Origin: Prorocentrum cordatum
Taxonomy: Eukaryota
Length of the DNA stretch: 64,000 nucleotides
Direction: 5' to 3'
Assembly: GCA_963575745.1 (NCBI GenBank)
Contig: CAUYUJ010000315.1
Coordinates: 1-64,000 of the forward strand
Shown: positions 18,593 to 60,044 of the stretch, piece by piece
Numbering within the stretch: position 1 is the first letter of the stretch
How the letters are laid out: the number at the start of each line of letters is the position of its first letter
Notes under the pieces: generated by a model
What the model was told of the DNA's origin: nothing
The model's input: the letters and a program-made list of their open reading frames with translations, nothing else
Database searches by the model: none
Translations under genes and position numbers: made by a program

Positions 18593-18595
18593 GGC

Positions 18596-20849: not shown

Positions 20850-21440
20850 CATTATTTGTTCGTCCTCTCTTCCTCCACTCCTTTCTTTATGACCAAAGCT
20901 CTTCCCTGTCGCACCCCGAAGCTGGTCGGAAAGGCGGAGAACTGAGAACAGCCTCGCACATGGAGGGCGGGTGGTTTTCAAAATGCGGCTCTCGATTCAG
21001 CGCCGCGCAAGCTTCAACTTTGTAAGAGTTTCACGGGCTGAGGGCGGGTCGTTTTCAAAATGTGGTTTTCGCCGCGCACATTCGTCTTAAACATGTGCAA
21101 GAGTTTCACGGACTGAGGGCGGGTCGTTTTCAAAATGTGATGTTCGCCTTTGCGCCGCGCACATTCGTTTTAAAACATTGCAAGAGCTTCACGGATTGAC
21201 GGCGGGCGATGTTCAAAATGTGGCTGCCGCCTAACGCCGCGCACATGTGTCTTAAACATGTGCCAGAGCTTCACGGATTAAGGGCGGCTCCTTAAAAAAA
21301 ATGCGGCTCTCGCCTTAGCGCCTATGAGCTGGTTCTCCTCCTCCTCCTCCTCCGCCTCCTCCTCCTCTTCCTCCTTCTCCTCCATTCCTTTTCCTTATAG
21401 ATAACTCGTCCCTGTCGCACCCCGAAGCCGGTCGAAAGGG
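20850..21440 (-). repeat. Dispersed repeat family A, partial inverted copies
   Basis: Reverse-complement subunits GAGGGCGGGTCGTTTTCAAAATGTG...GCGCCGCGCAC, with end motif CCTGTCGCACCC at ~20905 and ~21412. Confidence 0.8.
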
Positions 21441-29200: not shown

Positions 29201-29440
29201 GTGCGTCGGGATTGGCTGCTCGTCTCGTGGTACCTGGCGCGCGGCAGTGATCTGCAGGACGAGGGGCGCGTGGTCGCTGATGCCCTCCTCGGAAAGCTCC
29301 ATCGCGTCCCTCGCAGTGGTGAGGATCGTCGAGACCGAGAGCATGGCGTGCGCGTCGATGCCCAAGAAGATGCGGTCGATCGTGGACAGCTGCTTGCTGG
29401 ACTTGTCGTAGTGGGTCGGCCACTGAGACTCCACCTCCAG
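26270..29440 (-). mobile_element. 5'-truncated LINE (non-LTR retrotransposon): end of APE endonuclease, RT, C-terminal zinc finger; disrupted
   Basis: TIDRIF..SDHAPL (APE C-terminus); GPDQL, RTLSLKNCDAK, DFRQAFPSL, GIMQGCPLS, CADDL (RT); CLFGC..LEHYIVC. Stop at 27560 and a frameshift near 27495 split ORFs 27560-29434 and 26310-27398. Confidence 0.92.
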
Positions 29441-29516
29441 AGCTGGAGGAGGAGGAGGAGGAGGAGGAGGAGGAGGAGGAGGAGGAGGAGGAGAAGGAGG
29501 AGGACCAGTGGAAACA

Positions 29517-38200: not shown

Positions 38201-39551
38201 GCCCACGAATCTCCCACCCCAGGATGTCGGCGTTATGATCACACATACAGACCTCATGAGTGGGTAACCCTCTGGACGTCAAGGCTGCGTTGACGAGCTT
38301 CACAGCGCGGGAAACGGCCTCGGGATCTGTACCCAAGGCGAGAAAATTATCCACATATACGGTCATCGCCAGTGGCTGCACCGGCGGCGCTACACTCTTG
38401 TCTGAAATGAACGGGACGTCGAGCAGCGCGGGGATGGAGCTCACGATCCCGCGGTGAATGGTCTGGCACCAATACAGCGCATGCGACCAGCCCATGGGCA
38501 GCACCGCCAGGACTGGCCACACACGGCTGCCCGGCGCGAGGGACCTTCCACCTAAGACACTCAGCCCCATATCACCTGCCTTCACCGCTGGCAGCGTGAA
38601 GTAGTCCCGAAAAGCCTCCGGCAATCCAAAGTGATAGAAAGCGTCGCAGATATCCACGTGACCGACGTAGAGCTGCTCTCCCTCTGGCACGGCTAGCTCT
38701 CCAAGTGCAGAGCCCGTCGCCAGCGCGACTGTCGAAGGCCTCTTGAACCAGCAGTTAGCCCGTCGGCAGTCAATAACCATGCGCTGCTTGCCAGACTTCT
38801 TACGCACGAAGAAGAGGCCGCACCTCTCACGTGGCGCGGCAGAGAAAGTCACCATCCCCGCCGCATGCAAGCGCCGCACCAACCCAGTATAGGCATGTGG
38901 CTGAGCGCGAAGGACAGCATCCATGTACGGCTGTCGCGGAGCCTCAGAGAGGTTGGAATCCGCATCCTTGCGTGGAAGGAGCTGCTCGTGTATTGATGCC
39001 TCGACATCTAGATCGCCCACGCCTGCAACCAGCTCCCCAAGCGGCACAGGCACGTTGCCGGCCTCGGGCAGCGAGACGAGGGAATCGTCGAAGCTGACGA
39101 CTGGCGAGTCGATGTCCTCGTACACGCCAGCACCGCGGAGCTCACGGAGGGCTCCTGCGGGAGTGAGGCCAGCTGGCGGGGGGCCCAGCGCGGCGGCAGC
39201 ATGACGAACTCGCTCATGTACCAAGCGATGGGGTAGCCGCTCCGCCAGGCCAGGAGCTCCGGGCGCCCCTGGCCGACCAGCCAGATCATTGAGGGCCCCC
39301 AGGGCGCGATTGGCTTCAGCCACTTGAGCGTCACGCCGCAGAAGCCGGCGCCGCACCGAGCGGTTCACCACGCCCTCTGCTGGAGCCTGGCCGTCCCGAA
39401 GTAGCGGGACAGGAAAAAAGTCTCGACGGTCTGGAACTCCGTCGAACTGAATTCGCCCAGGTAAGCATGCAGGAGAGCCCTTGGGCTCGGCGGCCTTGAA
39501 GCTCGAGAAGGAGGCGGCCGCCTTCAGGCCTCCTTCCCGCGACGCCGTCAT
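38103..39551 (-). CDS. DIRS reverse transcriptase (frameshift into RNH at the (GA)5 run, ~38191-38200)
   Basis: FFVRKKSGKQRMVIDCR, DICDAFY, LPMGWSHA, YVDN, ILGWEI. Confidence 0.93.
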   Translation of the reverse strand: MTASREGGLKAAASFSSFKAAEPKGSPACLPGRIQFDGVPDRRDFFPVPLLRDGQAPAEGVVNRSVRRRLLRRDAQVAEANRALGALNDLAGRPGAPGAPGLAERLPHRLVHERVRHAAAALGPPPAGLTPAGALRELRGAGVYEDIDSPVVSFDDSLVSLPEAGNVPVPLGELVAGVGDLDVEASIHEQLLPRKDADSNLSEAPRQPYMDAVLRAQPHAYTGLVRRLHAAGMVTFSAAPRERCGLFFVRKKSGKQRMVIDCRRANCWFKRPSTVALATGSALGELAVPEGEQLYVGHVDICDAFYHFGLPEAFRDYFTLPAVKAGDMGLSVLGGRSLAPGSRVWPVLAVLPMGWSHALYWCQTIHRGIVSSIPALLDVPFISDKSVAPPVQPLAMTVYVDNFLALGTDPEAVSRAVKLVNAALTSRGLPTHEVCMCDHNADILGWEIRGRERDSTKEIKAVEASHGARLSYKQGRGESKRS

Positions 39552-40981
39552 GACTTCCCTCCGCCGCCGTCCCCTTTGGGACCTTTGCGGCGGAGCTCTC
39601 GTTCTTCTCGGGCCTTCCTGATGTTCTTCATGATGGCGGCGTCCTTCTCGACCTGGCCTTTCACGAACTCGAGGAGCGTAGGGGCCACCATTAGAAGGTC
39701 CCCAGCCTTGCTGAAGCCGCTGAAAGCCGAGAACTCCTCGGGACTCATCTTGTCCTTGGAGCTAGCCGAGTCGGCCTCACGCAAACGATCGTGGTAGCTC
39801 CACTCGATAGTCTGCGCCCGCCGAAAAATGGCCTCGGCGAAGGCGCAGTTGCTGAGGTCCAGCTGATCATAAGTGCCCGCCAGCTCGATATACTTCATGA
39901 GCTGCTCATGCTCCTGCACCCCCCACTGCTCCGACTGGAGCCTCGCCGTCGTCTTGAACATCAGATGATGATCCGTAGGGGTGTGCCGCCGCCGCAAGAA
40001 ATCCAAGCACCACCAAGCTGACCGAGGCCCTGCCACGGGGAAGTCACCAAACGGCTCCTCCTCGCAGGCGTCCACGACCTCGCGCCACTCTCGGCCTCGG
40101 CCCCGCGGCCCACTCTTCACCGTCAGTGTTCGGGCATCTCCTCCTCCCCCGTTCCCGGCGCCAGCGCTCAAGGGGTGGCCCTCGCCACTGCGCAGGCTCA
40201 TCACGAAGGAGTCCTGGTCGAGCCCCGTCAGGTGCACCACCACGGCTCGCCCGGGCGCTGCGAGGTACAGCCCCTTGCCGCAGAGAGACTGCGCTGGAGG
40301 CCCCAACTCGTCTCCCAGAGCGATGCGGCAATGCTCGTCGGCCTCGGCTGCTCGCCATGCACGGCCGCTCGACCGCGGCGTGCTGGTCCCCTCAACCGCA
40401 GGCCCCGGGGCGCCGCTGTCGCCGACGCCCTCCGCGGCCGCCGCAACCGATCCAGAGTGTCCCCCGTGGTCGCCTCCGAGGTCCAGACCAAGAGGAGGTC
40501 TCTTGCCCGTCATCCGTCGGCCCCCGAAGAAGTTGGCCCCGAGCGCCTCCTGCACGGCCACGTCTCGCCCCGCTGCAGTTCGCACCGCCATCGGCGTCTC
40601 CAGCTGCACCCCGCGCGCCTCCGCATCGGCTTGGGCGGCCGAGAAGGCCCGACGATAGAGGCCCTTCATCACCTCCTCCGTCGGCGACTCCTCGAAGCGA
40701 TACGCCCGCCCAAGCCCACTGGGAAGCCGCAAGTCCCGCGGCATCTCCAGCCACTCGACGGGGCTGTCGTCGGGCGACCCTCCTTCAAGCTCCTCGATGT
40801 ACATGTCACGATCGGGGGTGTACACCACCCAGCAGGTTCCTGGAAGCCCGGCGCCAGCAGTCTCACTGGCTGCTGGGTACAGCAGGATCCGCTCGTGCCA
40901 GAGGTCGTCCCCTGCGTAGCGCACCACCGCTCTGCAGCCCGGGAGAAGCCGCCGCGAGGATCCCCTGGGCACCAGCGCCAT
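39548..40981 (-). CDS. DIRS ORF1 (gag-like)
   Basis: Long complex ORF directly upstream of RT. Its stop overlaps the RT start as ATGA (39548-39551). First ATG at 40981. Confidence 0.8.
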   Translation of the reverse strand: MALVPRGSSRRLLPGCRAVVRYAGDDLWHERILLYPAASETAGAGLPGTCWVVYTPDRDMYIEELEGGSPDDSPVEWLEMPRDLRLPSGLGRAYRFEESPTEEVMKGLYRRAFSAAQADAEARGVQLETPMAVRTAAGRDVAVQEALGANFFGGRRMTGKRPPLGLDLGGDHGGHSGSVAAAAEGVGDSGAPGPAVEGTSTPRSSGRAWRAAEADEHCRIALGDELGPPAQSLCGKGLYLAAPGRAVVVHLTGLDQDSFVMSLRSGEGHPLSAGAGNGGGGDARTLTVKSGPRGRGREWREVVDACEEEPFGDFPVAGPRSAWWCLDFLRRRHTPTDHHLMFKTTARLQSEQWGVQEHEQLMKYIELAGTYDQLDLSNCAFAEAIFRRAQTIEWSYHDRLREADSASSKDKMSPEEFSAFSGFSKAGDLLMVAPTLLEFVKGQVEKDAAIMKNIRKAREERELRRKGPKGDGGGGKS

Positions 40982-41485: not shown

Positions 41486-42045
41486 ACATCTGGCACGTTC
41501 ACTATGGAAATTCGTGAAGTTCCTGCAGAGGCTTAGAACAAGTGCGCGCGGCGCTGAAGCGAGAACCACCCACCCTCAGTATGCGAGCTCTTGCACATGT
41601 CCAAGACGAGTGTGTGCGGCGTGAAGGCGGGAACCGCATTTAGAAAACTACCCGTCCTCTATCCGTGGAGCGCTCTTGCAAATATTCTAGAGGAATGCGC
41701 GCGGCGCTCAAGCGCGTGCCACATGTTGAAGACGATCCGTCCCCGATCCGTGGAACTCTGGCAAATGTTTGAAACACATGTGCTCGTTGCAAAGGCGAGT
41801 GCCACATTTTGAAAAAAAGAGCCGCCCTCAACCCTTGAAACGCTTGCAAATCTCTAAATCAAATGCGTGCGGTGCTAAGGCGAGAGCCACATTTTGGAAG
41901 CGGCCCGCCCTCCATCTATGAACTTGTCGCCAACATCTACACTCCAGGGTCATACACAGTGAGGAAGTATTCGGCGCAACGTCTGGGCCGTTCTTTGGAC
42001 CAGCCACTGGGTGCGACAGGGAGGGAGTACTCATAAGGAAAAGGA
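41486..42045 (+). repeat. Dispersed repeat family A, copy 3, 3' part
   Basis: ~82-bp subunits and terminal GGGTGCGACAGGGAG. Joins 35382 colinearly with the other copies once the insertion is removed. Confidence 0.8.
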
Positions 42046-43866
42046 ATGGAGGAGGAGGAGAAGGAGGAGGAGGAGGAGGGGGCGGAGGAGAAGGAGAAGG
42101 AGGGGGCGGAGGAATGATGATGATGATGATGATGATGATGAGGAGGAGGAGGAGGAGGAGGAGAGAACAACGATGAGGAGGAGGAGGAGGAGGAGGAGGA
42201 GGAGGAGGAGGGGGAGGACGAAGGGGATGAGGAGAAGAAGGGGGGAAGAGGAGGAGGAAGGAGGAGGAGGTAGGAGGATGAGGGAGGATGGGGAGGAGGA
42301 GGAGGAGGAGGAGGAGGAGGAGGGAGGAGGAGGAGGAGGAGATGGAGGAGGAGGAGAGGAGGAGGAGGACGAAGAAGGAGGAGGAAGAGGGGGAGGAGTC
42401 CAGGGAGGAGGAGGAGGAGGAGGAGGAACACGATGAGGAGGAGGAGGGGGAGGACGATGGGGATGAGGAGGAGGAGGAGAAGGAGGAGGAGGAGGAGGAG
42501 GAAGAGGAGGACGAGGAAGGAGGAGGGAGTAGGGAGGATGAGGGAGAGGAAGAAGAGGAGGAGGAAGAGGAGGAGAAGGAGGAGGATGAGGAGGAGGAGG
42601 AGGAGGAGGAAGACGAGGAGGAGCAAAAGGAGAAGGAGTAGGAGGAGGAGAGCGACCACCAGCAACAGGTGAAGGAGGCGGAGGAGGAGGACGAGGAAGG
42701 GGAGAAAGAACCCAGAGACAGGACGCCCCGTCAGCCTGAGCCCGAGCAGGACGAGGGGGAGGAGGATGAAAGGAGGAGGGCGGACAAAAACGGGGGGACT
42801 TGCCTGACATCGCGCGCATGGAATCCGTTCCCTCCTGAGGATTGCCGGAGGTGGGATGCTGAAGTTCGCGCGCGCCACACACACACAAATACCAGCCCCC
42901 CCACCCGCCCACGCCTGCTCGGGAAGTTCCGCCTACACCAGCACGGCATCATCCTCTGTCCGCCTGCACTCCCGCGCGGCACCCCTTCAAGAGAGGAACC
43001 GTCATGCGTCGCATCGGCAGGGGGGCCTCGCTCCGCGATCAGGGGGGGGTCTCCCTCTGCCGGCGGGGTTGCGCGCGCGGCTGGGCACCGCTCGCGCGGC
43101 GCGGGCGGACGGGGGGTCTCGCGCGGGGGGGGGGGGGCGCAGATGCGTCGCGCAGGGAAAGGGGGCCTCGCCCCGCGGATCGGGGTAGGCGCGCCTCGCG
43201 GCGCGCCACTGGGCGCGCGCGCGCGGCCGAGGGGGTCGCGCAGCGGGGGCGCGGCTGCCTCGCCTCCGCGGGGGCCTCGCTCCGCGACCGGCCGGGGGCC
43301 TCGCCCCGCGCCTGGGCAGCGCCTCGCTGCGCGACGGGGCAGCGCCCAGTCGCAGGGGAAGGCCTCGCGCGGGGAAAGGCGCGGAGGCGTTACCTCCGCG
43401 GCGCGGGGGGTCTCGCTCCGCGCCTGTTGGGGGCCTCGCTCCGCGACCGAGGGTGCGCCTCACTGCGCGACTGGGCACCGCTGGCGCAGCGGGGTCTCGC
43501 GCGGGGGCACCGCGTCCGTGTCCCATGAGGAAGCCCGCTTGGGGCAGCACTTGAGGAGGAATCCTGCGGGCAGGCAATGGGGCCTCCTGCCTCCCATTCG
43601 GCAGGGCCTCATCCAGAGGCATTGCATTGCAGTGGCCGCAGGGGCACTGCAAGAAGCAGCCCAACCTGTGCTACGAAAAAGACGAAGGAGGCGCAGCCCG
43701 CTTTCTTGCCTCGCCCGCCCCGTCGTTCGTCCGAGGCTCCACTGAAAGCTCCGACCTGACTTCAGAGAAGGGGGGAGGGGGAGGATAGCAAGGGGGGGGA
43801 CAAGTAGGGGGAGGACGATGCGGGTGAATGCAAGGACTAGGGAGGGAGAGGAGACAAGCATGCCAC

Positions 43867-44229
43867 TGATGATGCTGATGCTGATGCTGATGCTGAAGCT
43901 GAAGCTAAAGCTGATGATGATGATGATGATGATGCTGATGATGATGCTGATGATGCTGATGATGCTGATGATGCTGATGGTGATGATGGTGATGATGGTG
44001 ATGATGATGATGATGGTGGTGATGGTGATGATGATTATGATGCTAATTCTGATAATAATGATGATGATGTTGATGATGATGATGCTGATGATGATGACGA
44101 TTATGGTAATGGTCATGATGATGGTGATCATGACGATGATGATGATGATGATGGTGATGCTGATGATGATGCTGAAGATGATGATGGTAATGATGATGAT
44201 GATGGTGATGATGATGCTGATGCTGATGC

Positions 44230-44270
<41 letters not shown>

Positions 44271-44530
44271 GCTATGATGATGATGCTGCTGCTGATGATG
44301 ATGATGACGATGATGATGCTGCTGATGATGATGCCGATGATGAGGAGGCTGCAGCTGTTGATGATGCTGATGATGCTGATGATGATGGTGATGATGAGGA
44401 GGAGGGTGGTGGTGGTGATGATGACGAGGGTGATGATGGTGATGGTGATGGCAACAACGATGACAACGTCGATAACGATGACGACGGCGACGACGACGAC
44501 GATGGTGATAAGTGCGATGATGGTGAGGAG
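43867..44530. repeat. (GAT/GCT/GGT)n triplet microsatellite
   Basis: Directly visible. Source of the poly-Met/His/Ile ORF artefacts. Confidence 0.95.
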
Positions 44531-48090: not shown

Positions 48091-49601
48091 TATCAGGCGG
48101 GCCGTCTTCCTTACGATCTCCTGCCTTAAACCCTTGGCTTTTGCTCTTCCCTCCCCCCGCACCGACTGGGAAGAGGGATCTCGACGGCATCGGCGTGGTC
48201 GCTGGACATTGCCCGCAGCTCGAAGCTCGGAGGCGGGCGGGAAGCGAAGCGGAGACGGGCGGTGGGTGGGGCCCCAGACATGCGATGTCTTGATGTTTGT
48301 TCAATGCGCGGCCCCTTTTCGCGGGGTCGGTTTTCCATCCAGGGTCGTTTCTTGACTGTTCCAGGGCCCGTCGAGGGCCCTTCGAGCCGAAAAGGGACGA
48401 AGAAAAAGTCCGTCGTGATTTTTTCACGACACGAGCATGTCAGGGGTGCAGAGGCGGAAGACGACTGGGGACACCAGACGGTACCGATACCGCCACTCCC
48501 CACACCTCTCCTGCGGTGCGCTCTGACCAGGATGTCGAGACGAATCCGGCGGTGGCGACTAGGGCTTCTCAGGAGGCCCAGACAGGGCGAAAACGAGGGA
48601 AGAAGATCGGTATACAGCCGAAAATATGATCAAGAAGATCATCACTTAAGAAACCTGGGCCAGCTTTCTGGACATTTCTTAAGACAAGCCTGGCCACGTT
48701 GTTGCGTCAGCGCTGGAAGGGCGAACGCGCTCCAAAAATTGCGCCAGCTCTCTGGCAAAGTTGGCGCCGGCCCAGCTCTTCGAGAGAAGGTCTCTTAATC
48801 AGATGCTCGACTGTAGATACCCTTTCCTCTCGGGTCGGGCGAAAGGGGGGGATAGCAAAGGGGGGGCTTGAGAATCAGCTCACGCAGCTGATTTTCCCGG
48901 CGCCTCCCGGCGCCGGAGGCGACTACGTATCGAGGAATGGGCCCCTCGGTGAGGCCGAAGCCAGCTGCATGCAGCAAATTTTAAAACAGGGCTAGGATCG
49001 GGATAAATCGCTCCAGAGCGTTCCGGAGCGCTCTCAGAGCGTTCCGGAACGCTCTGGAGCGGCCGCGGCGCCCAATACATCCTCCAAACCCGCCGATTCT
49101 CAGAGATTTCGAGTTATCCCGATCCGATTTTGTCCCGATCTTCGCGTCGTTTTACCCCCCCCCTTTCCCAATCCCCCCCCTTCGCCCGGCCCGATCCTCC
49201 TCCGAGACGGGGAGGGGGAGGAGGAGGAGGAGGAGGAGGAGGAGGAGGAGGAGGAGGAGGGAGGAGGAGGAGGAGGGGGAGGAGGAGGAGGAGGAGGAGG
49301 AGGAGGAGGAGGAGGGAGGAGGAGGAGGAGGAGGAGGAGGAGGAGGAGGAGGAGGAGGAGGAGGAGGGGGGGAGGGGGAGGAGGAGGAGGAGGAGGAGGA
49401 GGAGGAGGAGGAGGAGGAGGAGGAGGAGGAGGAGGAGAGGAGGAGGAGGAGGAGGAGGAGGAGGAGGAGGAGGAGGAGGGAGGAGGAGGAGGAGGAGGAG
49501 GAGGAGGAGGAGGAGGAGGAGGAGGAGGAGGAGGAGGAGGAGGAGGGGAGGAGGAGGAGGAAGGAGGAGGAGGAGGAGGAGGAGGAGGAGGAGGAGGAGG
49601 A

Positions 49602-49632
<31 letters not shown>

Positions 49633-49945
49633 AGGAGGAGGAGGAGGAGGAGGAGGAGGAGGAGGAGGAGGAGGACGGCGGCCGACCGCCGACGGGCGGC
49701 TGCGGGGCGCCAGACGGGGAGCCGCCCGCGCCGTCCAGGCGCGCGGCCGCGGCGCAGAGCGCGGAGTCGAAGGAGGAGCGGCGGCTCGGGGCCGCGGGCT
49801 CCGCCCCGGCGCCTGGGCGTCGTCGGCCTCGTCGCCGGTCGTCCGCCGTCCGCCGTCCGCCGCCGCCGCCGTCCGCCGCCGCCGTCGCCGTCGCCGCCGT
49901 CGTCGCCGCCGTCGTCGTCGCCGTCGTCGTCGCCGTCGTCGTCGC

Positions 49946-50921: not shown

Positions 50922-52653
50922 GGTCTCCGTCGCCGTCGTCTCCGTCGCCGTCGTCCCGTCGCCCGTCGTCGGTCGTCGGTCGTCGGCCTTCCGTCGTCGT
51001 CGCTGGTTGTCCATCGTCCTCGCCGCCGTAATCGTCGTCGTCGTCGTCGTCGTCGCCGTCACCGTCGCCGTGGGCCGTCGCGACGTCGTCCACACTTGTT
51101 CTCCGCCCTCCCTCATTCCCTCCCCCCGCCCTCCCTCCCGCCTCCATCCCGCCCTCCCTCCCTCGCGACCTCGCTCCCTCGCTCCCTCCTTGCTCCGCCC
51201 TCCTCCTCCTCCTCCTCCTCCTCCTCCTCCTTGCTCCGCCTTCTTCCTCCTCCTCCTTCTGCCTCCCTCCCCTGTCACGTGCGGTGCGGCAGTGGCGGCC
51301 TCTGCGCGCCCTGGCGTGGTCCCCCCCGCGCCCCGGCGGCCACCCCTGCGAGGGGCTACCCTTGTGTAGCCTGTAGCCTGTAGCCGACCCCTGTTCGCTC
51401 CCGCGCAGCTCTGGCCACGTTCCTGGTGCGGTCTTGCGCTGGCCACGCGAATCCGTGAGTCTGCTCATTTTCCGCGTCCCTCCTCCTCCTCCTCCTCCTC
51501 CTCCTCCTCCTCCTGTTCTTCTCCTCCTCCTCGTCCTCCTCCTCCTCCTTCTCTTCTTCCTCCTCCTCCTCCTCCTCCTCCTCCTCCTCCTCCTCCTCCT
51601 CCTCCTCCTCTTCTGGCTTACGGGTCAAAACTCCAACCTCCAGCGGCCGTTCGGGGCGATTCTGATCCCCCCCAGGGGCGCCTCTAAGCGAGGCAGCTGC
51701 TGGAACGTACCCCGAGGCAGGAAAACCTTTGCGCACCGACGAAACCGCTTGAAAACGTCCGACAACGCGTCCCGCAACTTGTTCCTTGCCAGATTTTCGA
51801 CGTCGTGCTTTCTTTGGTTGTTTTGCAACAGGAGCCTCCCAAAGTCTCGACCCCTCCGCTGGGACCAGTTTCCGGGCCCCCAGTGAGGGCCCCTGGAAGC
51901 CGAAAACGGCCACAACCCTCCCGCTGCGCGTTTGAGGTCGGGGTACGTCTGGCTTCTTTGGAGATCTCCCGGATGAGGTCCCAGCGGATGGGGTCGGAGG
52001 ATTGCACCGCATCGCCGATGCATCGGCGACGCCCGCATGGAGAATGTCGGGCTCCACGTCGAGCCGCATCGGCGATGTGGTGCATCGGCGATGCGGCGGA
52101 AGCCTCCAACCCCATCCACTCCGATCCCATCTGGGAGGCATAGAGGTTCGGAGCAGGGCGAGGCGAGACAACGGCAGCTCTGAGTCGGTCCCCTGACCCC
52201 TCCTCCTGGGGCTCCAGCGCGCCAGTTTCCCGAGCGGCGTCCGGCCGGGGCGACGAGGGGCCTTCCCGAAGGCCAACCACCTTCGCCTCGACTCGCCCTC
52301 TGATCGTCGCCGTCGGCTCTCGCTTCGTGGCGCGGCCCTCCTGCGGCCCCTTGGGGCGACCCGGGCCCCCCCTGGAGCGCTCCTGGCGAGGCGCGGCTGC
52401 TGGAAGCCACGCCGAGGCCGAGCAGCCGCCAAGGACCGACGAGAAAACGCCCGACAGCCTCGAACCTCGACCAGCTCGCCTCTGGAGAGCTACGTCTGGC
52501 GTCCGCACGCTTCCTCCACAGGAGGAGGAGGAGGAGGAGGAGGAGGAGGAGGAGGAGGAGGAGGAGGAGGAGGAGGGAGGAGGGAGGAGGGAATGCTATG
52601 GGAATGCTATGAGAGCGGACCTCTGTCCTCCACAAAATTACCCACCTATGGGG

Positions 52654-55600
52654 TTAGTCTGAACTGCCTGAATCGCCTCCTCCTCCCACCGCCCCAAAAG
52701 ATAAACGGGGCGGCTCCCGTCGTAGAGCCTGTGCACTCCGAAGCGGCGCAGCTCTCTCCTGGGCGGCGGGCCTTGCCTCCGCTGGGACGGGCGGTGGGGG
52801 AGGGGCGAGGGAGGGGCCCCCTGGCGCTTCACCCTCGCACGAACGACCGACGTGAGACGACACCACCCTCTCACGATCACGCGCCGCCATAGCCTCCACT
52901 ACGGCTTGGGGGGGCCCCTCCCTCCTGGGATATATACCCTTGCGAATTCGAGTGAGGTTCTCGGTCCCCTTGGGGGTCAGTCCCTCACATCGCTTGCTGA
53001 TATGCCTACCATCTACCGTAGCGTAACGACCACATTTGCTGCAGGCATGCATGAACCACTTGTCCACATAAAACATAGCATGAGTTTCGTGAAACTCAAA
53101 GGCCCCCGCCACGAACCTTCTGGGGGTCTGAATCACATCTGGGGGCCTCTGTCCCTCTGGGATGGCCCTGCCTGCACAAGGGGTGGCCGAAAACTTGAGC
53201 AGTCGAGAGCCTGGCACCACCTGATCACACACCGCACACCTCCAACCCGTGCCCGACTTCTCAAGGCGGTGGGCCGACTCTCGAACTGCTACCGCACACT
53301 TGTTAGCTGGGGGTCGCTTCGCAACCTCCTGCCTTCCATTCTTCGCTTGGACTTCTGCACTCGCTGAGTCGGCCAACGCTCGTCTCGCGCGCCGCCGCAC
53401 TAAACTGGCAATGGCATCAATTCTATCTGTCTGCGGGTTCTCCCCAACCAAACCGAACTCCCAAGCCAGCTCCGCCCCCTCTCCCGCCCATATGTCAGCT
53501 ACCGCATTACCAACCGCAGTCTCTAACTGCAGCTCGGTTGTCAGCAGCTCAGGGGATTCATCCGTGTGAGAGGGTGTCCACTGCACTTCGACAGTGGCGG
53601 TATCTGGCCTAGAACTCCAGGACACGCGGGCCCTGGTCCACAAATCTTCATTAGCCCCAGTCGGGCTCGGGTTCTCCATTTTAAAACGCCACTTCTTAGC
53701 GACCGACAAGTGGTCTGTAACGAAAACGAACGGCCCAGGGATCTCTTCTAAAGCTAAACAAAACGCCCGGATCTCGGAGCGCGGGACGGTTTGGCGGGCT
53801 CCGAGCAGGGGACGGGCCAACGCCGCCTGGACAATCCATTCGCCCTGGGACCACCTCAGGGAGCAGATAGAAGATCCGCATCTCCTTCGTCTGGGGTCGT
53901 CCGAAAATCGCCCCCCCGAGCCGTCGTCGTAAACCTTTTAAACCCCGTCGCTTCCTCGAGAGGCCTCAAAGTCCCCCTCCCCGCCCAGCCTAAGCTCCCG
54001 CCCCTCCAGCCGCCCATCGTCAAAGAGGGGGTGAGTGAGGCGAGTAGGGGGAAGACCACGGAGCCATAAAGCTGGCTCAGCTTCTGCTTGTGCTAAAGCC
54101 GCAACTACCAAAGGCTCAGTTTTGCTATAATCGCTGTGATCAGTGTTCCTGGAACATTCCCATATTCTATGCTTCAAGCTCTCAGGGGCTTGTTTACATC
54201 TCGGGCAATCGACTGTTACTTCGTATCCTTTTTCCCTGCAGCGGACTCTCGGCCACTGGCCGCCAGCGACCACCGTCACGTTGAGCGCCAGCTGATCTAG
54301 CATCCCCTTGCGCTCGAACCTGCGCTGCTCCATTACTATGGGCCACAGGTCTCCGCCCTCCTGCAAGTTGTCACCAAACTCGTGCTTGGCAGCCTCCGTC
54401 CAGAGGTCCCTGCGTAGGTCGCCCTCCAGGTCGTCCAGGAGCTCCTGGAAGCAGCCCGTGGCCACGAACTTGCCGTCCTCGGAGGTCGGCAGCTCCCACA
54501 TCTCCAACTCATCAGGTCCAGGTCGATGCCATTGAGTGGCGGTCGAGGGTGTCCATCCAGCATCCATTAGCGTTGCCATCAGAGCTCCTGTGGGGCCCCG
54601 TACAGCTCGCCATCTCTTGTCGCCATATCTGTGGAGACGCGCCTTGATGAACGGCCATGCTTTCGCAACTCGTCGATGGATGTGGGGAAACCTCTGCCAC
54701 AGGCCTAACCATTCTCGTACCACACCCAGTCTGAGATCAACTGCGGGGTCTCTCAGGCCCAGCTCCATGCCCAGCGTGGTCGTCAGACATCGACCTCCTG
54801 CACTGCCTCCTGCCACTTTGCCCGCCTGCCTTCTCAGCACGGTGATCGCCTGCTTGGACATGCCGTACGTCTGCTGCCCATAGATCGCCTGCGGCAGTGC
54901 GCCCACGTTATAGAGGCCCTTGGACTCATGCTTCAGCGCAGCAATCTTTCTCAGCTTCACGATCTTCGCGAACCTCCTCCTCGCCTTGAGCTGCCGCTGC
55001 TTACTCTTTGCTGCTACCCGCTTACGTCCTGCAGCAGTGTCCAGGCCCAGGTCCGTAGCCACGCCGCTGGCCTTAGCAGGTATGCCACGTATTCGTAATC
55101 GCTTAGCTGTCTTCCGAGCCTCCTTCAAGTCTGAGCCTATCACCGTGGTCTTATTCGATATGGTCATACGTTGTTCCACCAATCCAGTGCATATATCCGT
55201 CGACACCTCCACCAGCTGCTCAGCCACCGTCTGTGAACTGCCCTCGCATCTTGCTACCGTGTCGTCCACGAACGTCCACAATCCTGCTGTTGGGTGTCTT
55301 CGATGCGCCAACTCAAGCACTGGATGAAGAAAAAGCTTCGCTAGAGTTACTCCTCTCGCGGATCCTGCCACCGGTGATCTGGTAGGCCAGATGGCCTCGC
55401 TGATGACAGATCGCTCCTGCAAGTATCTGGGTCCAAGAAAGATCATCGCTTCCAATCCGACTGCCACCGCAGGGAATCCTGCCGCACACGCAATCTGCAG
55501 CAAGATGACCAGCGAGACCGTGTCGTAGAACTTTTCTATATCCAACAACAATGTCATGGCCGAGGCGCCGATCTCGATGCCTGTCTCGTCCAAGATCGAC

Positions 55601-57800
55601 CGAAGGAGTCCTGCCCTGAGCGCCGAGCTCCCCTTGATCGCAGTGTCCCAGTGGTCTGATAGCCCAGCACTCCACAAGGCACATACTCCGCCTCGCGCTC
55701 TCGACCATAACTTAACTGGTAGCGGTAACATACCCAATACTCGATCACCTGCACCTGGCCCAGGCTTGGCCACCATCGCGCACTTGGTGGCTGATAGCTG
55801 TCTTGGCCATGTCAAAGTACTTTCGCTCCTCTGCAATATTTCCAACAATTCTTGCTTAGCCTGGCCAGGAAGTCTGTCAATATCCGTGGGGCCAAGCTGA
55901 TCCAGACCTTTCGCTTTGGATGCCGATGTGACTCGGAGCGCACTATTGAGCATGTCCATGTCTATGGGGTCCAGGTCCTCTTCCCACGCTCTTCGCTTGG
56001 TGCGCTCCAACTGCTCAATGATGTCAGCTCGTCTGTCCACAGGGTCCGTCCAGATGGTCTCCCACTTTCTTGCCTTCGTGTTCATGATAATGGTGGGGTC
56101 AGCTGTGACGAAGTCTTCTCTGATGGCCATCTCATAGCGGGGCGCGTCCTTGGGCTTGACATGCCTGTGCAGGATGCCCGCCTTGGTCTGCCATACCTTT
56201 TTTGCCCAGGTAGCAAAGTTCTTCCGAGCCGTGGTCATCGATCTGGACGACGCCACCGCCAAGTGCTTCTCTGTCTGGGTCACCAGATTCGCTAGCTTCC
56301 CCTCGTCTAACTGCCATATGTCAGATGCCATGTCGAAGTACATCTCGCTGCTGGCCTCAGTCACATTCTTGCTGAAGGCGTCCTTCCGCGGCAATCCTCG
56401 CAGGACTCCAAGCTGCTTCTGTATGCGTGTCACGCACATTCTCTGCTGCTGCCCGTCGGTGCCGTTCGCAAAGAGTGACTGATATCTGACCAGATCTGCT
56501 GCCAGTATACTCCATTCTTCCGCAGGGCCATACCGCATGTGAGTTCTGCCTGGCGTGGGTTTTGCTCGCACCCATCGTATACCAAAGCCTGCTGCGCGCC
56601 CCTGGCATCCCTGCGCCTCCTGCTCGTCCAGCTGCTCATGCCTGATGAACGCCTCCTCCACCTTGGCGACCCACCGGCCGTACTGCTGCGTCAACTGGTA
56701 CTCATCCTTCTGGTGCTTCGTACCTCTGGTGATCATCTTCTCACCTATGATGCGCATTTCCTCCGACAGCTCCATCTCGTGCTCCACGAGCCCGACCTGC
56801 TCCCAGAGCTCCTCCGAGACGCAGTAGGGCATCTTCAGCACCGGTGTGTCCTGGCTGTCGGGGACATGCTGCTCGAGCATCATCGCCTCCTCGTACGCCT
56901 CCTGCAAGTGCTCCTCCAGGGCCTGCTGCCGACGTCGCTGCGCTTCCTGCTTCCTCTTGCTCGTCTTAGAGTCAGGGTCCGCCGCCTTCTGAGGTCTCGC
57001 CTGGTATGGGAGCGCCTTAGGGATAACTAGCTTCCGATGCCACCAGCTCTCCTTGGTGCCCTCGATGGTTAGCTGGAGCCCACAATGCGTACGCCATGGC
57101 ACGCGACCCTGAACGTACAGCTTGAGCCTAGGGGCGAAGTCCACTCTTGCTATGCCGTAGTCAATGAGGCTTCCCTTGCCTTTGTCACATGTGATGCCAA
57201 CATCTGGTCGTAGCACCACTCCTCCCAGCTTGCCAGGTAACTCAGCGCGTTCCATGCTGTCCGCTGGGATGTTCCAATCAGCCAGGACCACCCATGGGTC
57301 CGTGAGAGATCTGATGAAACCTGACAGGGATCGAATCCTGTGGTAATTCGACCCTGTGAAGCCTTCGCCTGGAACCAGGTAGGCCGAGATCAGGATGACG
57401 TTGCCCGAGCGCGTGTGGACGTTGAGCGCCGCGAAGCCCCTGAACGGGTCGACGTCTCCGTTGTCCACGATGCGCTTCCTCAACAGGTCGTATCCAGTGC
57501 ATGCGAGGTGAGTCCTGGCCAATATGAACTCGCCCCCCGTGGTGCCCTTCTCAGACCGCTTTGTGGGCACCGCCGCCGTGCCCTGTAGCTTCCAGCCATC
57601 TCGTGCTACCACTTCACGTACCTGTTCCAGTCGCCCTCGATCCACGTGCGTCTCGCACATCATGATGATGTCCTTCTGCTTGCCTTCTTCCGTGATGAAC
57701 TTATGGGCCTTAGGCCCCCACACTGTGATATTCGAGAAGAAGATGCTAAAGACTTTGCTCGCCACCAGGAGTCTTATCAGCCTCTGCACCCCGCACCGCG
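52654..57800 (-). CDS. LINE ORF2: APE endonuclease, RT, CCHC zinc finger, RNase H, C-terminal Cys/His clusters (single in-frame TAA at 53938-53940)
   Basis: FFSNITVW, MCETH, SAYL, ADWN, LIDY (APE); GLDQL, DIEKFYD, FVDD (RT); CPRC..HRIWEC; YDDGSGG, QTVPRSE, VTDH, WTPSH, GNAVAD (RNH). ORFs 53938-58971 and 52654-53820 are the same frame. Start codon uncertain. Confidence 0.92.
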
Positions 57801-58825
57801 TCCCTGTACGCCGTGGGGGCGGTCTTGGCCTTGGCGCCCCTGGCCTTGTGCTCGGCCTGCTGCTTGATCTTGTCAATGACCTCCTTCCGTTCGCGCTTCT
57901 GCTCCTCCGTGGGAGGCGGCTGGGTAGGGCTGGCTCCTCCCGTCCCCGCCGCCGTAGCTGACGCCGCGGAGCCCCCACCAGACGCCGCTGGCGCCTGGGC
58001 CTCCTGCGCGTCGTTCTTGGTCTCGTCCTCCGTGGTCTTACGCTTCTTCTGTGCCTGTCGTCTGAAACGGTCCGCCTGCTGCTTGAGCTCGCTGAACTTC
58101 CGAAACTGCCCAGCCGCTGCCTGCAGCAACTTGTCCAGCGCCTCCATGTCTGCCTTGAACTTGACCAGCTTGGCCTTGTCCTCCTCCTCATACTCGTCCA
58201 GGTCATCGAAGAGGTCCCCAACCGCAGGTGCCTGCCAGTCCGCCTGCTGAGGCGGCTCGGGGTCCTGGCACACGGTCTCCGCCTGGTACGCCGCCAGCGC
58301 GCGCTTATGCTCCAGCACCGCGTCGGCTGCATCCTCGATGGCCTTCTGGTTCTTAGTGCGCAGCTGCAGGACGTGGTCCTCCGCCTCCTGCAGGGCCGCC
58401 GCGGAGCTGTCCACCTCCAGCTGGCAGCGGTTGAGCTTGTTGATCGCCTGCCGCAGCTCGAGCTCCTTGGACACTTCCTTCTTGGGCGCCGCCGCCGCCG
58501 CAGCCGCCTGCACCTGCGACTGCACCGCCTTGACGGGCCCCAGGTCCACCTGCGGCGCCATCTGCGCCGTGAGGGACTCGACGCGCTCCAGCATGCTGCT
58601 GAGCTCCGCCAGCGTGCCGTGGACCGCCGTCGGCTTGCGCCAGGGGGGCCCCTTGCCTGTGCTCTTGCCCTTGTCCGCAGCCGCCGTGCCTGGGGCCATT
58701 GACTTCCACCCCGGCATGACTGACTGGCACTTGTTGCACCACCCACCTGACCTCTCCAGCTTCCAGTCGTAGACCCAACCACCACAGGTCGCACAAATCG
58801 AGTAGGTCTGGCGCCCGCGCCCCAT
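57746..58825 (-). CDS. LINE ORF1: N-terminal C4 zinc finger plus coiled coil
   Basis: MGRGRQTYSICATCGGWVYDWKLERSGGWCNKC, followed by long heptad-rich helices. Located between the SL and ORF2. Confidence 0.85.
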   Translation of the reverse strand: MGRGRQTYSICATCGGWVYDWKLERSGGWCNKCQSVMPGWKSMAPGTAAADKGKSTGKGPPWRKPTAVHGTLAELSSMLERVESLTAQMAPQVDLGPVKAVQSQVQAAAAAAAPKKEVSKELELRQAINKLNRCQLEVDSSAAALQEAEDHVLQLRTKNQKAIEDAADAVLEHKRALAAYQAETVCQDPEPPQQADWQAPAVGDLFDDLDEYEEEDKAKLVKFKADMEALDKLLQAAAGQFRKFSELKQQADRFRRQAQKKRKTTEDETKNDAQEAQAPAASGGGSAASATAAGTGGASPTQPPPTEEQKRERKEVIDKIKQQAEHKARGAKAKTAPTAYRDAVRGAEADKTPGGEQSL

Positions 58826-58971
58826 GGCCTGCGCAGGCTCGTGGTGTGTGCCTCCGACGCTCCGAGGTGGGGCGGACCACCTCGGCGCTCGCCCTGGGGC
58901 TGACCAGGGGAAGGAATGCAAACTGGCCGCGGACTAGCGGTATCCACTTGTTCCCCTGCGGAACAAAGCAT

Positions 58972-58993
58972 CTTGAGCCAAAATGGCTACGGA
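58972..58993 (-). other. Dinoflagellate spliced leader exon, retro-copied
   Basis: TCCGTAGCCATTTTGGCTCAAG is an exact match to DCCGTAGCCATTTTGGCTCAAG. It is not followed by a GT SL intron, so it is not an SL RNA gene. Confidence 0.97.
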
Positions 58994-60044
58994 AGGAGGA
59001 GGAGGAGGAGGAGGAGGGAGGAGGGGAGGAGGAGGAGGAGGGGGAGGAGGAGGGAGGAGGAGGAGGGAGGAGGAGGAGGAGGAGGAGGGGGAGGAGGAGG
59101 AGGAGGAGGAGGAGGAGGAGGAGCAGCAGGGGGAGGAGGAGGAGGAGGAGGAGGAGGAGGAGGAGGAGCAGGAGGAGAAAGAGGCAGGAGGCAGGAGGGA
59201 GGAGGAAGGAGGAGGAGGAGGAGGACCGATCGCGAAGCGAGGGCTTCCTCCACAGCGGCCCGCCCGCCTTCGCCGGCCGCTGCCGCGCGCGGGGGTGCGC
59301 CCGGGGCGGGCGGGCGATGGCCCGCGGCGGCCGAGCTGCGCGCCGCCCCCGGCGGGCTGCGCTCCTCAAGGCCGGCGCTCCCAGAGGGGGAGGCCGGGCG
59401 CGGTGGCGCGAGGGGCCTCGTAGGGCACGGCAAGGCCAGGACAGGGGCGGCATCGTCGAGCTTGAGCTGGGAGGAGCGAGGAGGAGGGGGGAGGAGGAGG
59501 AGGAGAAGGAGGAGGAGGAGGAGGAGGAGGAGGAGGAGGAGGAGGAGGAGGAGGAGGAGGAGGAGGAGAGGAGGAGGAGGAGGAGGAGGAGGAGGGAGGC
59601 AGAGGAGGAGGAGGGGAGGAGGAATGTGAGGAGGAGGAGGAGGAGGAGGAGGAGGAGGAGGAGGAGGAAGAGGGGCGCTGGAGTCGTCGGGCGCCCACCC
59701 GCCCAAGACGAGGCCAGCACAGGGACAACGCCGAGCAGTGCTGAGTCGGAGCCCTCCGAGATCCGTCGGTTCTGGAAGCTTTACCGGGAGCCGCGGCCGT
59801 CCCAGAGCGTTCCAGAACGCTCCGAGAGCGTCCCGAACGATTTCTGCCGCTGTCCGAGCCCCGCCTGGTAGGAGGGAGGGGCCGGTGGAGACAGCGGCGG
59901 CCCTCCCCAGCGTTTTCTCCTCCTCGTTGAGCCTCCTGCAGGTGCCCCGCCGCCACGGCCAGATCCGCCTCAAGAGACGGGCCGGTCTGGATCCTGGGAG
60001 GGGTGCAGGGTCCAGGGGAAAACCGACGAGTAGCGATACCCCTA

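What the first reader, a model, noticed from the sequence alone, without database searches (positions are those of the whole stretch)
58940..59040. Full-length LINE begins at an exact spliced leader, directly behind a (CCT)n pyrimidine tract
Seen: the first 22 nt of the LINE are the exact dinoflagellate SL, preceded on the element strand by (CCT)n and followed by only ~150 nt of UTR before ORF1. Established: SL is added to dinoflagellate mRNAs by trans-splicing, and retro-copied mRNAs leave SL relics. Inference: this LINE's RNA was trans-spliced and fully reverse transcribed. The integrated SL ends in AG and sits behind a pyrimidine run, so it could act as the acceptor for the next round. That would give a promoter-less, self-regenerating 5' end that uses host read-through transcription and benefits from inserting in CCT microsatellites. 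Only one SL is present, with no stacked CCATTTTGGCTCAAG relics, which fits splicing at the terminal AG.
Basis: partly seen in the sequence, partly recalled or inferred. Interest (0 to 1): 0.85.

Follow-up and report, generated by a model that had tools for sequence, protein, structure and literature searches.

The report
Dinoflagellate LINE headed by spliced leader
A 6.4-kb jumping gene (LINE) of a Prorocentrum-like dinoflagellate really does start with the host's 22-letter spliced leader, but the CCT run in front of it arrived by retrotransposition too, so it is not shown to be a chosen splice-acceptor site.

Summary
Observation confirmed. An exact 22-nt dinoflagellate spliced leader (SL) lies at 58972-58993 (- strand). 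It is the only SL-like match in the 64 kb. (CCT)~77 lies directly upstream. Downstream comes a 6403-bp LINE: ORF1, then an ORF2 with an APE-endonuclease fold, reverse transcriptase and RNase H.

New facts change the reading:
- The LINE also ends in (CCT)~23, not poly(A).
- A 13-bp target-site duplication brackets 18 nt + (CCT)77 + SL-LINE + (CCT)23. The upstream tract therefore came in as retro-copied DNA, and the target was not a microsatellite.
- That tract holds no adenosine for 236 nt. The first AG after it is SL nt 6-7, the site retrogenes are reported to use.
- This copy carries a private TAA in ORF2.
- An AUG directly after the SL opens the ORF2 frame across all of ORF1.
- The family is multi-copy in four public runs, and likeness between copies stops at SL nt 1-2.
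- The SL plus 50-nt leader is roughly 10-80 times deeper than the LINE body, so it is a shared 5' module.

Verdict: an SL-headed LINE family is real and I found no published description. The self-regenerating acceptor mechanism is untested and partly contradicted. No RNA data were available.

The parts
59243..59255 (-). 5' copy of the 13-bp target-site duplication CTGTGGAGGAAGC
   Evidence: only 2 exact copies in the window; 1 of 39,152 positions has a copy at this spacing
59225..59242 (-). 18 nt of unknown origin (CCTCGCTTCGCGATCGGT), the first letters of the TSD-bounded insert
   Evidence: unique in the window; origin not explained
58994..59224 (-). (CCT)~77 tract directly upstream of the SL, inside the TSD
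   Evidence: TRF 58994-59225, 87% matches; the 249 nt upstream of the SL hold 1 A, 237 nt away
58972..58993 (-). Exact 22-nt dinoflagellate spliced leader TCCGTAGCCATTTTGGCTCAAG
   Evidence: likeness between copies ends here in 8 contigs of X1 (table 7)
58922..58971 (-). 50-nt leader that, together with the SL, is far more abundant than the LINE body; starts with ATG
   Evidence: depth 1245 at 58959 in X1 (20 contigs) against 16 for the LINE 5' contig (record 8); loose ends at 58922-58926 in all four runs
58826..58971 (-). 146 nt between the SL and the ORF1 ATG; highly structured
   Evidence: fold z = -2.09 for SL + UTR
57746..58825 (-). ORF1, 359 aa, N-terminal CxxC...CxxC motif, no Pfam family
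   Evidence: 5 of 6 listed variants are synonymous in this frame; homologous N-termini in P0001 and P0151
53938..58971 (-). Long ORF in the ORF2 frame, opened by the ATG next to the SL and overlapping all of ORF1
   Evidence: the frame stays open in only 2 of 5000 synonymous-codon shuffles of ORF1
56980..57759 (-). APE-type endonuclease domain of ORF2
   Evidence: pLDDT 86.2; top Foldseek hits are TRAS1 EN (E 5e-12) and LINE-1 EN
55141..55569 (-). Reverse transcriptase core
   Evidence: RVT_1 E 1.8e-4 (below Pfam cut-off); relative P0030 passes the cut-off; 4452 relatives at E <= 1e-3
53938..53940 (-). Private in-frame TAA that cuts ORF2 in this copy
   Evidence: every covering contig in X1, X2 and X3 reads TTA (Leu) here
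52654..53937 (-). Continuation of ORF2: RNase H (about 53473-53823) and a Cys-rich C-terminus
   Evidence: RNase_H E 0.046; relatives pass the cut-off; 11 of 13 listed variants here are synonymous
52591..52653 (-). 3' UTR, 63 nt, ending in a doubled CATAGCATTCC
52522..52590 (-). (CCT)~23 3' tail in place of poly(A), abutting the 3' TSD copy
   Evidence: 69 nt with no A and no G
52509..52521 (-). 3' copy of the 13-bp target-site duplication

Best explanation
This is a dead but full-length copy of a young, multi-copy LINE (APE endonuclease, reverse transcriptase, RNase H) of a Prorocentrum-like dinoflagellate. The family's RNA has the host 22-nt spliced leader as its first 22 letters. An AUG follows at once and opens the ORF2 frame, and the RNA ends in a (CCU)n simple-repeat tail instead of poly(A). 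Reverse transcription to the very 5' end wrote the SL into DNA. That the SL is the 5' boundary of the repeated unit is shown. That it was first put there by trans-splicing, the default fate of dinoflagellate mRNAs, is inferred. The (CCT)n upstream of the SL is not a host microsatellite picked as an acceptor. It lies with the LINE inside one 13-bp target-site duplication, so it arrived as retro-copied DNA. Three routes fit: (i) the LINE landed in the (CCT)n tail of an earlier, almost wholly truncated insertion; (ii) the reverse transcriptase jumped from the SL end onto a second (CCU)n-tailed RNA; (iii) a read-through transcript carried the source copy's upstream flank. How the SL end is renewed each generation stays open: either trans-splicing at the terminal AG, or transcription starting at SL nt 1 under control of the conserved 50-nt leader.
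For: The SL is exact and unique in the window. LINE identity rests on the APE fold, RVT_1 and RNase_H in this ORF2 and its relatives, and 4452 relatives. A copy 93-95% identical in protein is annotated in Prorocentrum cordatum. The family is multi-copy: 458 contigs of X1 were laid, 137 of them at least 99% alike, plus 46, 30 and 22 contigs from three marine metagenome runs of one study. Purifying selection is clear: 26 of 33 listed ORF2 variants are synonymous, including 11 of 13 behind the TAA, and the TAA reads Leu in all covering contigs. The unit boundary sits at SL nt 1-2 in 8 contigs (table 7). The TSD is supported, and its 3' copy abuts (CCT)23, which is therefore the tail. The TSD begins with CT, a 2-nt overlap with the tail repeat, as expected for target-primed reverse transcription.
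Against: No RNA was seen, so both trans-splicing of the LINE RNA and its 5' end are inferred. The 18 nt at 59225-59242 match nothing in the window, including this LINE's own 3' UTR, so routes i to iii cannot be told apart. The SL plus leader is about 10 times deeper than the best-covered RT bin and about 77 times deeper than the LINE 5' contig. Part of what starts with SL plus leader is therefore not this LINE and might be something else, such as short elements or SL-RNA-like genes. The (CCT)n tail is shown for this copy only. Logan contigs are short, and only 24 of 73 loose ends and 40 of 295 differences were printed.
Confidence: 0.55

Rival explanations
1. The integrated SL, sitting behind the pyrimidine run, acts as a 3' splice site. 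Read-through pre-mRNA is trans-spliced at the terminal AG of the genomic SL, which restores exactly one SL each round. Insertion into CCT microsatellites is favoured because it supplies the pyrimidine tract.
For: There is exactly one SL and no stacked relic in this copy. Upstream of the SL other copies are also purine-rich on the + strand, which means pyrimidine-rich on the element strand: 4 contigs read (AGG)n-like, and 4 more are heterogeneous (agreement 0.59) (table 7). If route iii holds, the TSD itself would show that transcripts do read in from upstream. A genomic SL sitting at the exact trans-splice site has a precedent in the Amphidinium peridinin-chlorophyll protein gene (passage in PMC2488372).
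Against: There is no adenosine for 236 nt upstream, so there is no usual branch point in the tract. The first AG after the tract is SL nt 6-7. Relics in dinoflagellate transcripts are reported to start at CCA, meaning that AG is the one used (passages in PMC6616646 and PMC12014239), and this would stack relics. No sequence consensus, and no pyrimidine tract, was reported for dinoflagellate acceptor sites ('pyrimidine' occurs 0 times in PMC2488372). The tract lies inside the TSD, the empty target is not a microsatellite, and the LINE's own tail is (CCT)n, so the tract needs no selective explanation. About 7.3% of this window is such a tract on this strand anyway.
Confidence: 0.2
2. The SL is now simply encoded. 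The conserved SL plus 50-nt leader is an internal promoter or 5' hallmark, like Pr77 of trypanosomatid L1Tc/ingi, that sets transcription to start at SL nt 1. The RNA is then born with an SL-like 5' end and an AUG at nt 23, without trans-splicing.
For: The first 72 nt are far more abundant and better conserved than anything behind them: depth 1245 in 20 contigs of X1; all covering depth in X2 (83.3 of 83.3) and X3 (27.1 of 27.1), and 27.8 of 32.6 in X4, share one variant at 58959. Contigs then diverge at 58922-58926 into at least three continuations. LINEs commonly use internal promoters. Pr77 is a 77-nt 5' module shared by several retroposon families and yields unspliced, translatable RNA (abstracts of PMC1874656 and PMC8190864 in the search listing). 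A promoter role for retroposed SL has been proposed for retrogenes (passage in PMC6050394).
Against: There is no transcription data. The leader's conservation may partly reflect coding, since it is the start of the long ORF. One X1 contig puts an SL next to internal LINE position 58508 (table 5; depth 5.9, side 21, letters between not known), which fits trans-splicing at other sites better.
Confidence: 0.2
3. The 5' 72 nt derive from an SL RNA gene or an SL-RNA-like small gene (exon plus part of the intron). They were captured by template switching, as in U6-L1 chimeras, or recruited as a promoter. On this view the SL was never trans-spliced onto the LINE RNA.
For: The leader is much deeper than the LINE. 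The commonest continuation beyond 58922 reads, on the element strand, as a GC-rich hairpin followed by a run of five T, the shape of a small-RNA gene end (table 7: X1 agreement 0.96; the same last letters in X2 and X3). One X4 contig has the SL's 3' half, then a different 15-nt spacer that begins with GT, then the same leader from 58956 on (table 7).
Against: Here, and in the abundant form, the SL is followed by AT. No high-depth difference is listed at 58960-58971 (table 3). SL gene introns are reported to start with GU or GC (passage in PMC6616646). The contigs break on both sides of the 72 nt into many contexts, unlike a uniform tandem gene array. Other continuations share CCAGGGC with the LINE's own UTR, which suggests diverged LINE UTRs. 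No Rfam family matches.
Confidence: 0.1
4. This is a site-specific LINE sitting in an SL RNA gene, like SLACS/CZAR/CRE of trypanosomatids or NeSL-1 of nematodes, so that the SL is target DNA.
For: An SL abuts the 5' end.
Against: The whole 22-nt SL lies on one side only. The 3' flank is (CCT)23 followed by unique DNA, not the rest of an SL gene. Upstream is (CCT)n, not an SL gene promoter. The TSD lies 249 nt away. The SL plus leader travels with the element in other copies. The endonuclease is APE-type, whereas those elements use a restriction-like endonuclease (recalled, not tested).
Confidence: 0.02

Closest known systems
SL relics of dinoflagellate retrogenes (Slamovits and Keeling 2008; Song et al. 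2017, 2018)
   Same: A DNA-encoded DinoSL sits at the 5' end of an intron-less retro-copy, taken as proof that a mature trans-spliced RNA was reverse transcribed.
   Different: Here the copied RNA is that of an autonomous LINE, the likely source of the copying enzyme. The SL is full length with no stacked relic, the 3' end is (CCT)n rather than a poly(A) trace, and the SL plus 50 nt forms a conserved, over-represented 5' module.
Pr77 5' hallmark of trypanosomatid L1Tc/ingi, NARTc/RIME, SIDER and DIRE
   Same: A module of about 70-77 nt at the extreme 5' end is shared beyond one element family, in a trans-splicing organism.
   Different: Pr77 is not the host SL and gives unspliced transcripts. 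Promoter activity is shown there and untested here.
SL-gene-specific LINEs (SLACS, CZAR, CRE1/2, NeSL-1)
   Same: A LINE is physically joined to spliced-leader sequence at its 5' end. SLACS is reported to be transcribed from the SL gene start (recalled).
   Different: Those elements interrupt SL genes at a fixed site, so both flanks are SL gene, and they carry a restriction-like endonuclease. This element carries a whole SL as its own 5' end, lies outside any SL gene and has an APE endonuclease.
LINEs with simple-repeat 3' tails and microsatellite targets (I factor (TAA)n, UnaL2, Dong, Waldo, Mino, Kibi, Koshi; recalled)
   Same: A simple-repeat tail replaces poly(A), and the same repeat is found on both sides of the element.
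   Different: The 13-bp TSD shows a non-repeat target with only 2 nt of overlap with the tail. Targeting of repeats is not shown for this family.
SymbioLINE elements of Symbiodiniaceae (de Mendoza et al. 2018, PMC5890265, passages)
   Same: These are dinoflagellate LINEs with Exo_endo_phos, RVT_1 and RNase_H domains, TSDs, conserved 5' and 3' UTRs and no poly(A) tail.
   Different: That paper does not mention the SL ('spliced leader' and 'DinoSL' each occur 0 times). ORF1 here has no DNMT domain.

Membership tests
Non-LTR retrotransposon (LINE), APE type | Reverse transcriptase domain | tested here: met
   RVT_1 E 1.8e-4, 21.7 bits, below the 29.6 cut-off. There are 4452 relatives at E <= 1e-3. 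Of 8 relatives scanned, P0030 passes the cut-off (31.9 bits) and P0008 has a weak hit.
Non-LTR retrotransposon (LINE), APE type | N-terminal apurinic-like endonuclease | tested here: met
   Pfam finds nothing. The AlphaFold model has pLDDT 86.2, and Foldseek gives TRAS1 EN at 5e-12, LINE-1 EN, APE1 and ExoIII.
Non-LTR retrotransposon (LINE), APE type | Target-site duplication flanking the insert, and a 3' tail | tested here: met
   An exact 13-bp duplication is present, and the (CCT)23 tail abuts its 3' copy. The duplication encloses 249 extra nt at the 5' side.
Non-LTR retrotransposon (LINE), APE type | Many dispersed copies, with coding frames under purifying selection | tested here: met
   laid 458, 46, 30 and 22 contigs from the four runs. 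Of the 33 listed ORF2 differences, 26 are synonymous.
SL-relic-bearing retro-copy of a trans-spliced RNA | DinoSL encoded in DNA at the 5' end of the copied unit | tested here: met
   the unit boundary falls at SL nt 1-2 in 8 contigs of X1.
SL-relic-bearing retro-copy of a trans-spliced RNA | The RNA is shown to be trans-spliced (SL absent from the precursor, added in RNA) | not testable with these tools
   No RNA run was listed. Table S23 of PMC10666404 was too large to read.
SL RNA gene | SL exon followed by a GU or GC donor | tested here: not met
   The SL is followed by AT. The criterion comes from a passage in PMC6616646.
SL-gene-specific LINE (SLACS/CZAR/CRE/NeSL-1) | Insertion splits an SL RNA gene, so SL-gene sequence lies on both flanks | tested here: not met
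   The 3' flank is (CCT)23 plus unique DNA, the 5' flank is (CCT)77, and there is no second SL piece in the window.
Microsatellite-targeting LINE | The target repeat flanks the element in most copies, and the TSD is made of the repeat | tested here: inconclusive
   This copy has CCT on both sides, but the TSD is non-repeat DNA outside the tract. Of the 8 X1 contigs that lose likeness at the SL, 4 read (AGG)n-like beyond it. The background is 7.3% of the window.
Pr77-like shared 5' promoter module | The same first ~70 nt shared by several element families | tested here: inconclusive
   The leader is 10-80 times deeper than the LINE, with at least 3 different continuations. What those continuations belong to could not be seen.
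Pr77-like shared 5' promoter module | Promoter activity with a start at nt 1 | not testable with these tools
   This needs 5' end mapping or a reporter assay.

The most novel reading that the evidence does not exclude
SL plus a 50-nt leader plus an immediate AUG forms a portable 5' cassette shared by a large set of dinoflagellate retroposons, possibly including short non-autonomous ones. It gives every new copy a ready-made, translation-competent SL 5' end. The end is renewed each cycle either by trans-splicing at the SL's own terminal AG or by initiation at SL nt 1. The (CCU)n tails of these elements would then seed much of the genome's CCT/AGG microsatellite load. Such a cassette would explain why dinoflagellate retro-copies survive so often, and would tie the source of retroposition directly to the SL system.
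Probability: 0.25. Interest if true: 0.8.

Novelty: new variant of a known kind. Interest (0 to 1): 0.5.

Why it matters
Dinoflagellate genomes are thought to have grown largely by retroposition of SL-capped mRNAs, yet the elements that supply the reverse transcriptase are poorly described. Here an autonomous, young LINE family itself carries the SL as its 5' end, with the first AUG right behind it and a simple-repeat tail. That makes three questions directly testable in Prorocentrum. How does a promoter-less retro-copy get expressed again? Can a genomic SL be re-used as an acceptor or as a start site? Are the very abundant CCT-type microsatellites by-products of LINE tails? In four literature searches I found no paper that describes an SL-headed LINE in dinoflagellates.

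Tried and rejected
- Whole genome: none is held, so copies could not be collected.
- RNA evidence: no RNA holder was listed, so expression and 5' ends could not be examined.
- Other copies in public collections:
  - ORF1 in viral contigs found nothing.
  - ORF1 in metagenome contigs found nothing.
  - A leader 20-mer in metagenome contigs gave one hit, L001, which is a chance match inside a bacterial coding region.
  - Two leader patterns in genome and viral contigs gave 0 hits.
- Earlier notes of this scan: nothing found.
- Rfam on 58700-59100: only chance-level hits, all far below gathering scores.
- Folding of the 72-nt leader is no better than shuffles (z = -0.72).
- PDB sequence search with ORF2: 0 hits.
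- Rejected reading of my own: I first took two entries, table 5c (52590 to 58993 and 52593 to 58992) for head-to-tail LINE tandems. They only join the AGG runs at the two ends of the laid stretch, so they are imperfect AGG-microsatellite contigs and are not used as evidence.
- Other copies in the window: no second copy of the LINE or of its leader. The 3' UTR end and the 18-mer recur nowhere else.
- Other reverse-transcriptase ORFs in the window are unrelated by tblastn.
- Papers: PMC2734150 and PMC1838650 (SL RNA gene papers) are not held, so the published Prorocentrum SL RNA intron could not be compared with the leader.
Full report
**1. What is in the sequence**

On the minus strand the region reads (CCT)n, then T-CCGTAGCCATTTTGGCTCAAG, then ATGCTTTG....
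- The SL 21-mer matches once in 64 kb even with 3 mismatches allowed, and 0 of 100 shuffles gave a match.
- The 15-nt relic motif with up to 2 mismatches occurs only inside that SL.
- The SL is therefore exact (58993-58972, D = T), single and unstacked.
- TRF reports (AGG)75 at 58994-59225, which is (CCT)n on the element strand.
- The ORF1 ATG is at 58825, 146 nt behind the SL.

**2. The element is a LINE, and this copy is dead**

Behind the SL lie, in order:
- ORF1, 359 aa, with no Pfam family.
- A long ORF2 frame.
  - Its first 260 residues get no Pfam hit but fold with pLDDT 86.2 into an AP-endonuclease fold. The best Foldseek hits are the TRAS1 endonuclease (5e-12), LINE-1 endonuclease, APE1 and ExoIII.
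  - A weak RVT_1 match follows (E 1.8e-4, below the Pfam cut-off).
  - After an in-frame TAA at 53940-53938, the same frame runs on for 427 codons with a weak RNase_H match (E 0.046).

ORF2 has 4452 relatives at E <= 1e-3 among 1.84 billion representative proteins. I scanned 8 of them:
- 4 have RNase_H above the Pfam cut-off;
- 1 has RVT_1 above the cut-off, and 1 more has a weak RVT_1 hit;
- 4 have no family.

The stop codon at 52654-52656 is followed by a 63-nt 3' UTR and then by (CCT)~23, with no A and no G in 69 nt. The element has no poly(A). From SL to 3' UTR end it measures 6403 bp.

**3. Other copies**

No genome is held. The only window on other copies is Logan contigs of four DNA runs laid on 52570-59012 at 90% likeness or more.
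- X1 (organism A) gave 458 contigs: 137 at 99% or more, 211 at 95-99% and 110 at 90-95%.
- X2, X3 and X4, three marine metagenome runs of one study, gave 46, 30 and 22 contigs.

The family is therefore multi-copy and young.

Of the 295 single-letter differences, 40 were printed. I classified those 40:
- In ORF2 proper, 26 of 33 are synonymous.
- Behind the TAA, 11 of 13 are synonymous.
- The TAA itself reads TTA (Leu) in every covering contig of X1, X2 and X3.

ORF2 is therefore one frame of about 1700 codons in the family, and the stop is private to this copy.

A Prorocentrum cordatum protein, P0151, is 93-95% identical over 509 aligned residues and includes ORF1. The window has 60% G+C. The host is thus P. 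cordatum or a close relative; this is an inference. The supplementary note of PMC10666404 (passages read) says LINEs of that genome have Kimura distances of 0-10 and are likely active.

**4. Is the SL the 5' end of the unit?**

In X1, 4 contigs lose likeness to the window behind 58992 and 4 behind 58993 (table 7; 24 of 73 loose ends were printed). No printed loose end in X1 shows a LINE copy running on 5' in some other way. Across copies the repeated unit therefore starts at SL nt 1-2. This fits an RNA that began with the SL.

**5. The CCT tract**

Four findings weaken the reading of the tract as an acceptor.

(a) The LINE's own 3' end is (CCT)n.

(b) The 13-mer CTGTGGAGGAAGC directly follows the 3' tail (52521-52509). 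It recurs only once in the window, at 59255-59243, which is 18 nt upstream of the 5' tract.
- Only 1 of 39,152 positions, this one, has an exact 13-mer copy at that spacing.
- No longer shared string links the two flanks.

This is a target-site duplication around 18 nt + (CCT)77 + SL-LINE + (CCT)23, 6721 bp in all.
- The tract therefore came in by retrotransposition.
- The deduced empty site is ordinary DNA, sharing only CT with the tail.

Three routes fit, and I cannot tell them apart because the 18-mer matches nothing in the window:
- insertion of the SL-LINE into the tail of an earlier, almost fully truncated (CCT)n-tailed insert;
- a template jump from the SL end onto a second (CCU)n-tailed RNA;
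- a read-through transcript that carried the source copy's upstream flank.

Only the third route needs transcription from upstream, and in that case this copy's RNA was not trans-spliced at the SL.

(c) The 249 nt upstream of the SL hold a single A, 237 nt away, so the tract offers no ordinary branch point. AG dinucleotides end at RNA positions 7, 22, 38 and onward. The first AG after the tract is therefore the UAG inside the SL. Relics in dinoflagellate transcripts are reported to start at CCA, which means that AG is the one used (passages in PMC6616646 and PMC12014239). [quoted passage not shown]

(d) Such tracts are common here. They cover 7.3% of the window on this strand and 3.9% on the other, so one flank alone is weak evidence.

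A link between the SL end and a pyrimidine-rich upstream flank does seem to exist. Tail-to-tail nesting or tail-primed insertion would produce the same pattern.

**6. An unexpected 5' module**

Depth in X1 varies along the element:
- 15-130 along the LINE body;
- 16 for the contig that covers 58503-58940;
- 1245 at 58959, carried by 20 short contigs, of which 941 share one variant.

That same variant at 58959 accounts for all covering depth in X2 (83.3 of 83.3) and X3 (27.1 of 27.1), and for 27.8 of 32.6 in X4.

Contigs then leave the window's sequence at 58922-58926, with at least three continuations. The commonest (X1 agreement 0.96, same ending in X2 and X3) reads on the element strand as a GC-rich hairpin followed by five T. 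One X4 contig keeps the SL's 3' half and the leader from 58956 on, but has a different 15-nt spacer that begins with GT.

SL plus about 50 nt is therefore shared with something far more numerous than this LINE at 90% likeness or more. Three candidates fit:
- many diverged LINE subfamilies;
- short non-autonomous elements;
- SL-RNA-like genes.

Against true SL genes:
- the SL is followed by AT, whereas GU or GC is reported for SL genes (PMC6616646);
- the 72 nt are embedded in many different contexts.

The nearest analogy is Pr77, the 77-nt 5' hallmark and promoter shared by trypanosomatid retroposons (abstracts of PMC1874656 and PMC8190864, search listing only).

**7. The AUG next to the SL**

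The three letters after the SL are ATG. They open a 1677-codon ORF that is the ORF2 frame and overlaps all of ORF1. The in-frame stop before it is the UAG inside the SL.
- In 5000 synonymous-codon shuffles of ORF1, this frame stayed open in only 2 (mean 4.8 stops). The third frame has 8 stops.
- The 6 listed differences in the overlap are 5 synonymous and 1 not in the ORF1 frame. All 6 change the residue in the other frame, and none makes a stop.

The frame is therefore kept open but its protein sequence is not conserved. ORF2 may be reached from an mRNA whose whole 5' UTR is the SL, with ORF1 read by leaky scanning. This is inferred, not shown.

**8. How it most likely works**

- Shown: the anatomy, the TSD, copy number, purifying selection and the unit boundary at the SL.
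- Inferred: the family RNA begins with the SL, ends in (CCU)n, and is copied to its 5' end by target-primed reverse transcription.
- Open: how the SL end is renewed. Only RNA 5' ends, precursors and copy-specific SL mutations can separate them.

**9. Novelty**

SL relics on retrogenes are textbook for dinoflagellates. A promoter role of retroposed SL has been proposed (PMC6050394, passage). A genomic SL at the exact trans-splice site is on record for one gene (PMC2488372, passage).

I found no paper describing a LINE headed by the SL, nor one with an SL-proximal AUG and a (CCT)n tail, in four full-text searches. The SymbioLINE paper does not mention the SL. Repeat libraries could not be consulted. 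I file it as a new variant of a known kind, with interest 0.5.

Noticed in passing
window 58969-58971 and 53938-58971 (-): An ATG directly after the SL opens the ORF2 frame through the 146-nt 'UTR' and all of ORF1. The frame is open in only 2 of 5000 synonymous-codon shuffles, yet its residues are not conserved between copies. It encodes an extension of about 400 aa rich in Arg and Ser.
   Followed up: partly
whole window; e.g. 289-945, 4554-5084, 22559-23010, 42033-42711, 49203-49681: About 11% of the window is polypyrimidine or polypurine tract, mostly CCT/AGG-type arrays: 25 tracts on one strand and 33 on the other. If LINE tails are (CCT)n, many of these arrays may be tails of truncated inserts. 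This was not tested.
   Followed up: no
window about 5947, 20888, 21398, 25611, 42033 (just downstream of Y tracts): A recurring motif ...CCCTGTCGCACCC... follows several pyrimidine tracts. A shared ...GATATGACGCGAGCGCACCTAGCTTG precedes the tracts at 3531(+) and 24046(-). Other repeat families here also carry CCT-type arrays.
   Followed up: no
window 11174-12574, 17000-18607, 27563-29530, 38106-39761 (-): Other retroelement ORFs are present: RVT_2 (Copia-like), a zf-CCHC gag-like ORF and two RVT_1 ORFs. None is related to this LINE by tblastn, and none has an SL.
   Followed up: partly
proteins P0036, P0137, P0118: Three EukProt entries labelled Pyramimonas sp. CCMP1952 are 73-93% identical to pieces of this LINE's ORF2. 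That data set may hold Prorocentrum-like sequences. If it is a transcriptome (recalled, not checked), it would hint that the LINE is transcribed.
   Followed up: no
window 21024-21287 and 25023-25494: Arrays of an 83-nt tandem repeat occur at two places, and the two consensus units look like reverse complements of each other.
   Followed up: no
window 3980-4266 and 43912-44450: Long pure trinucleotide arrays, (ATT)96 and (TGA)180, lie in an otherwise 60% G+C window.
   Followed up: no
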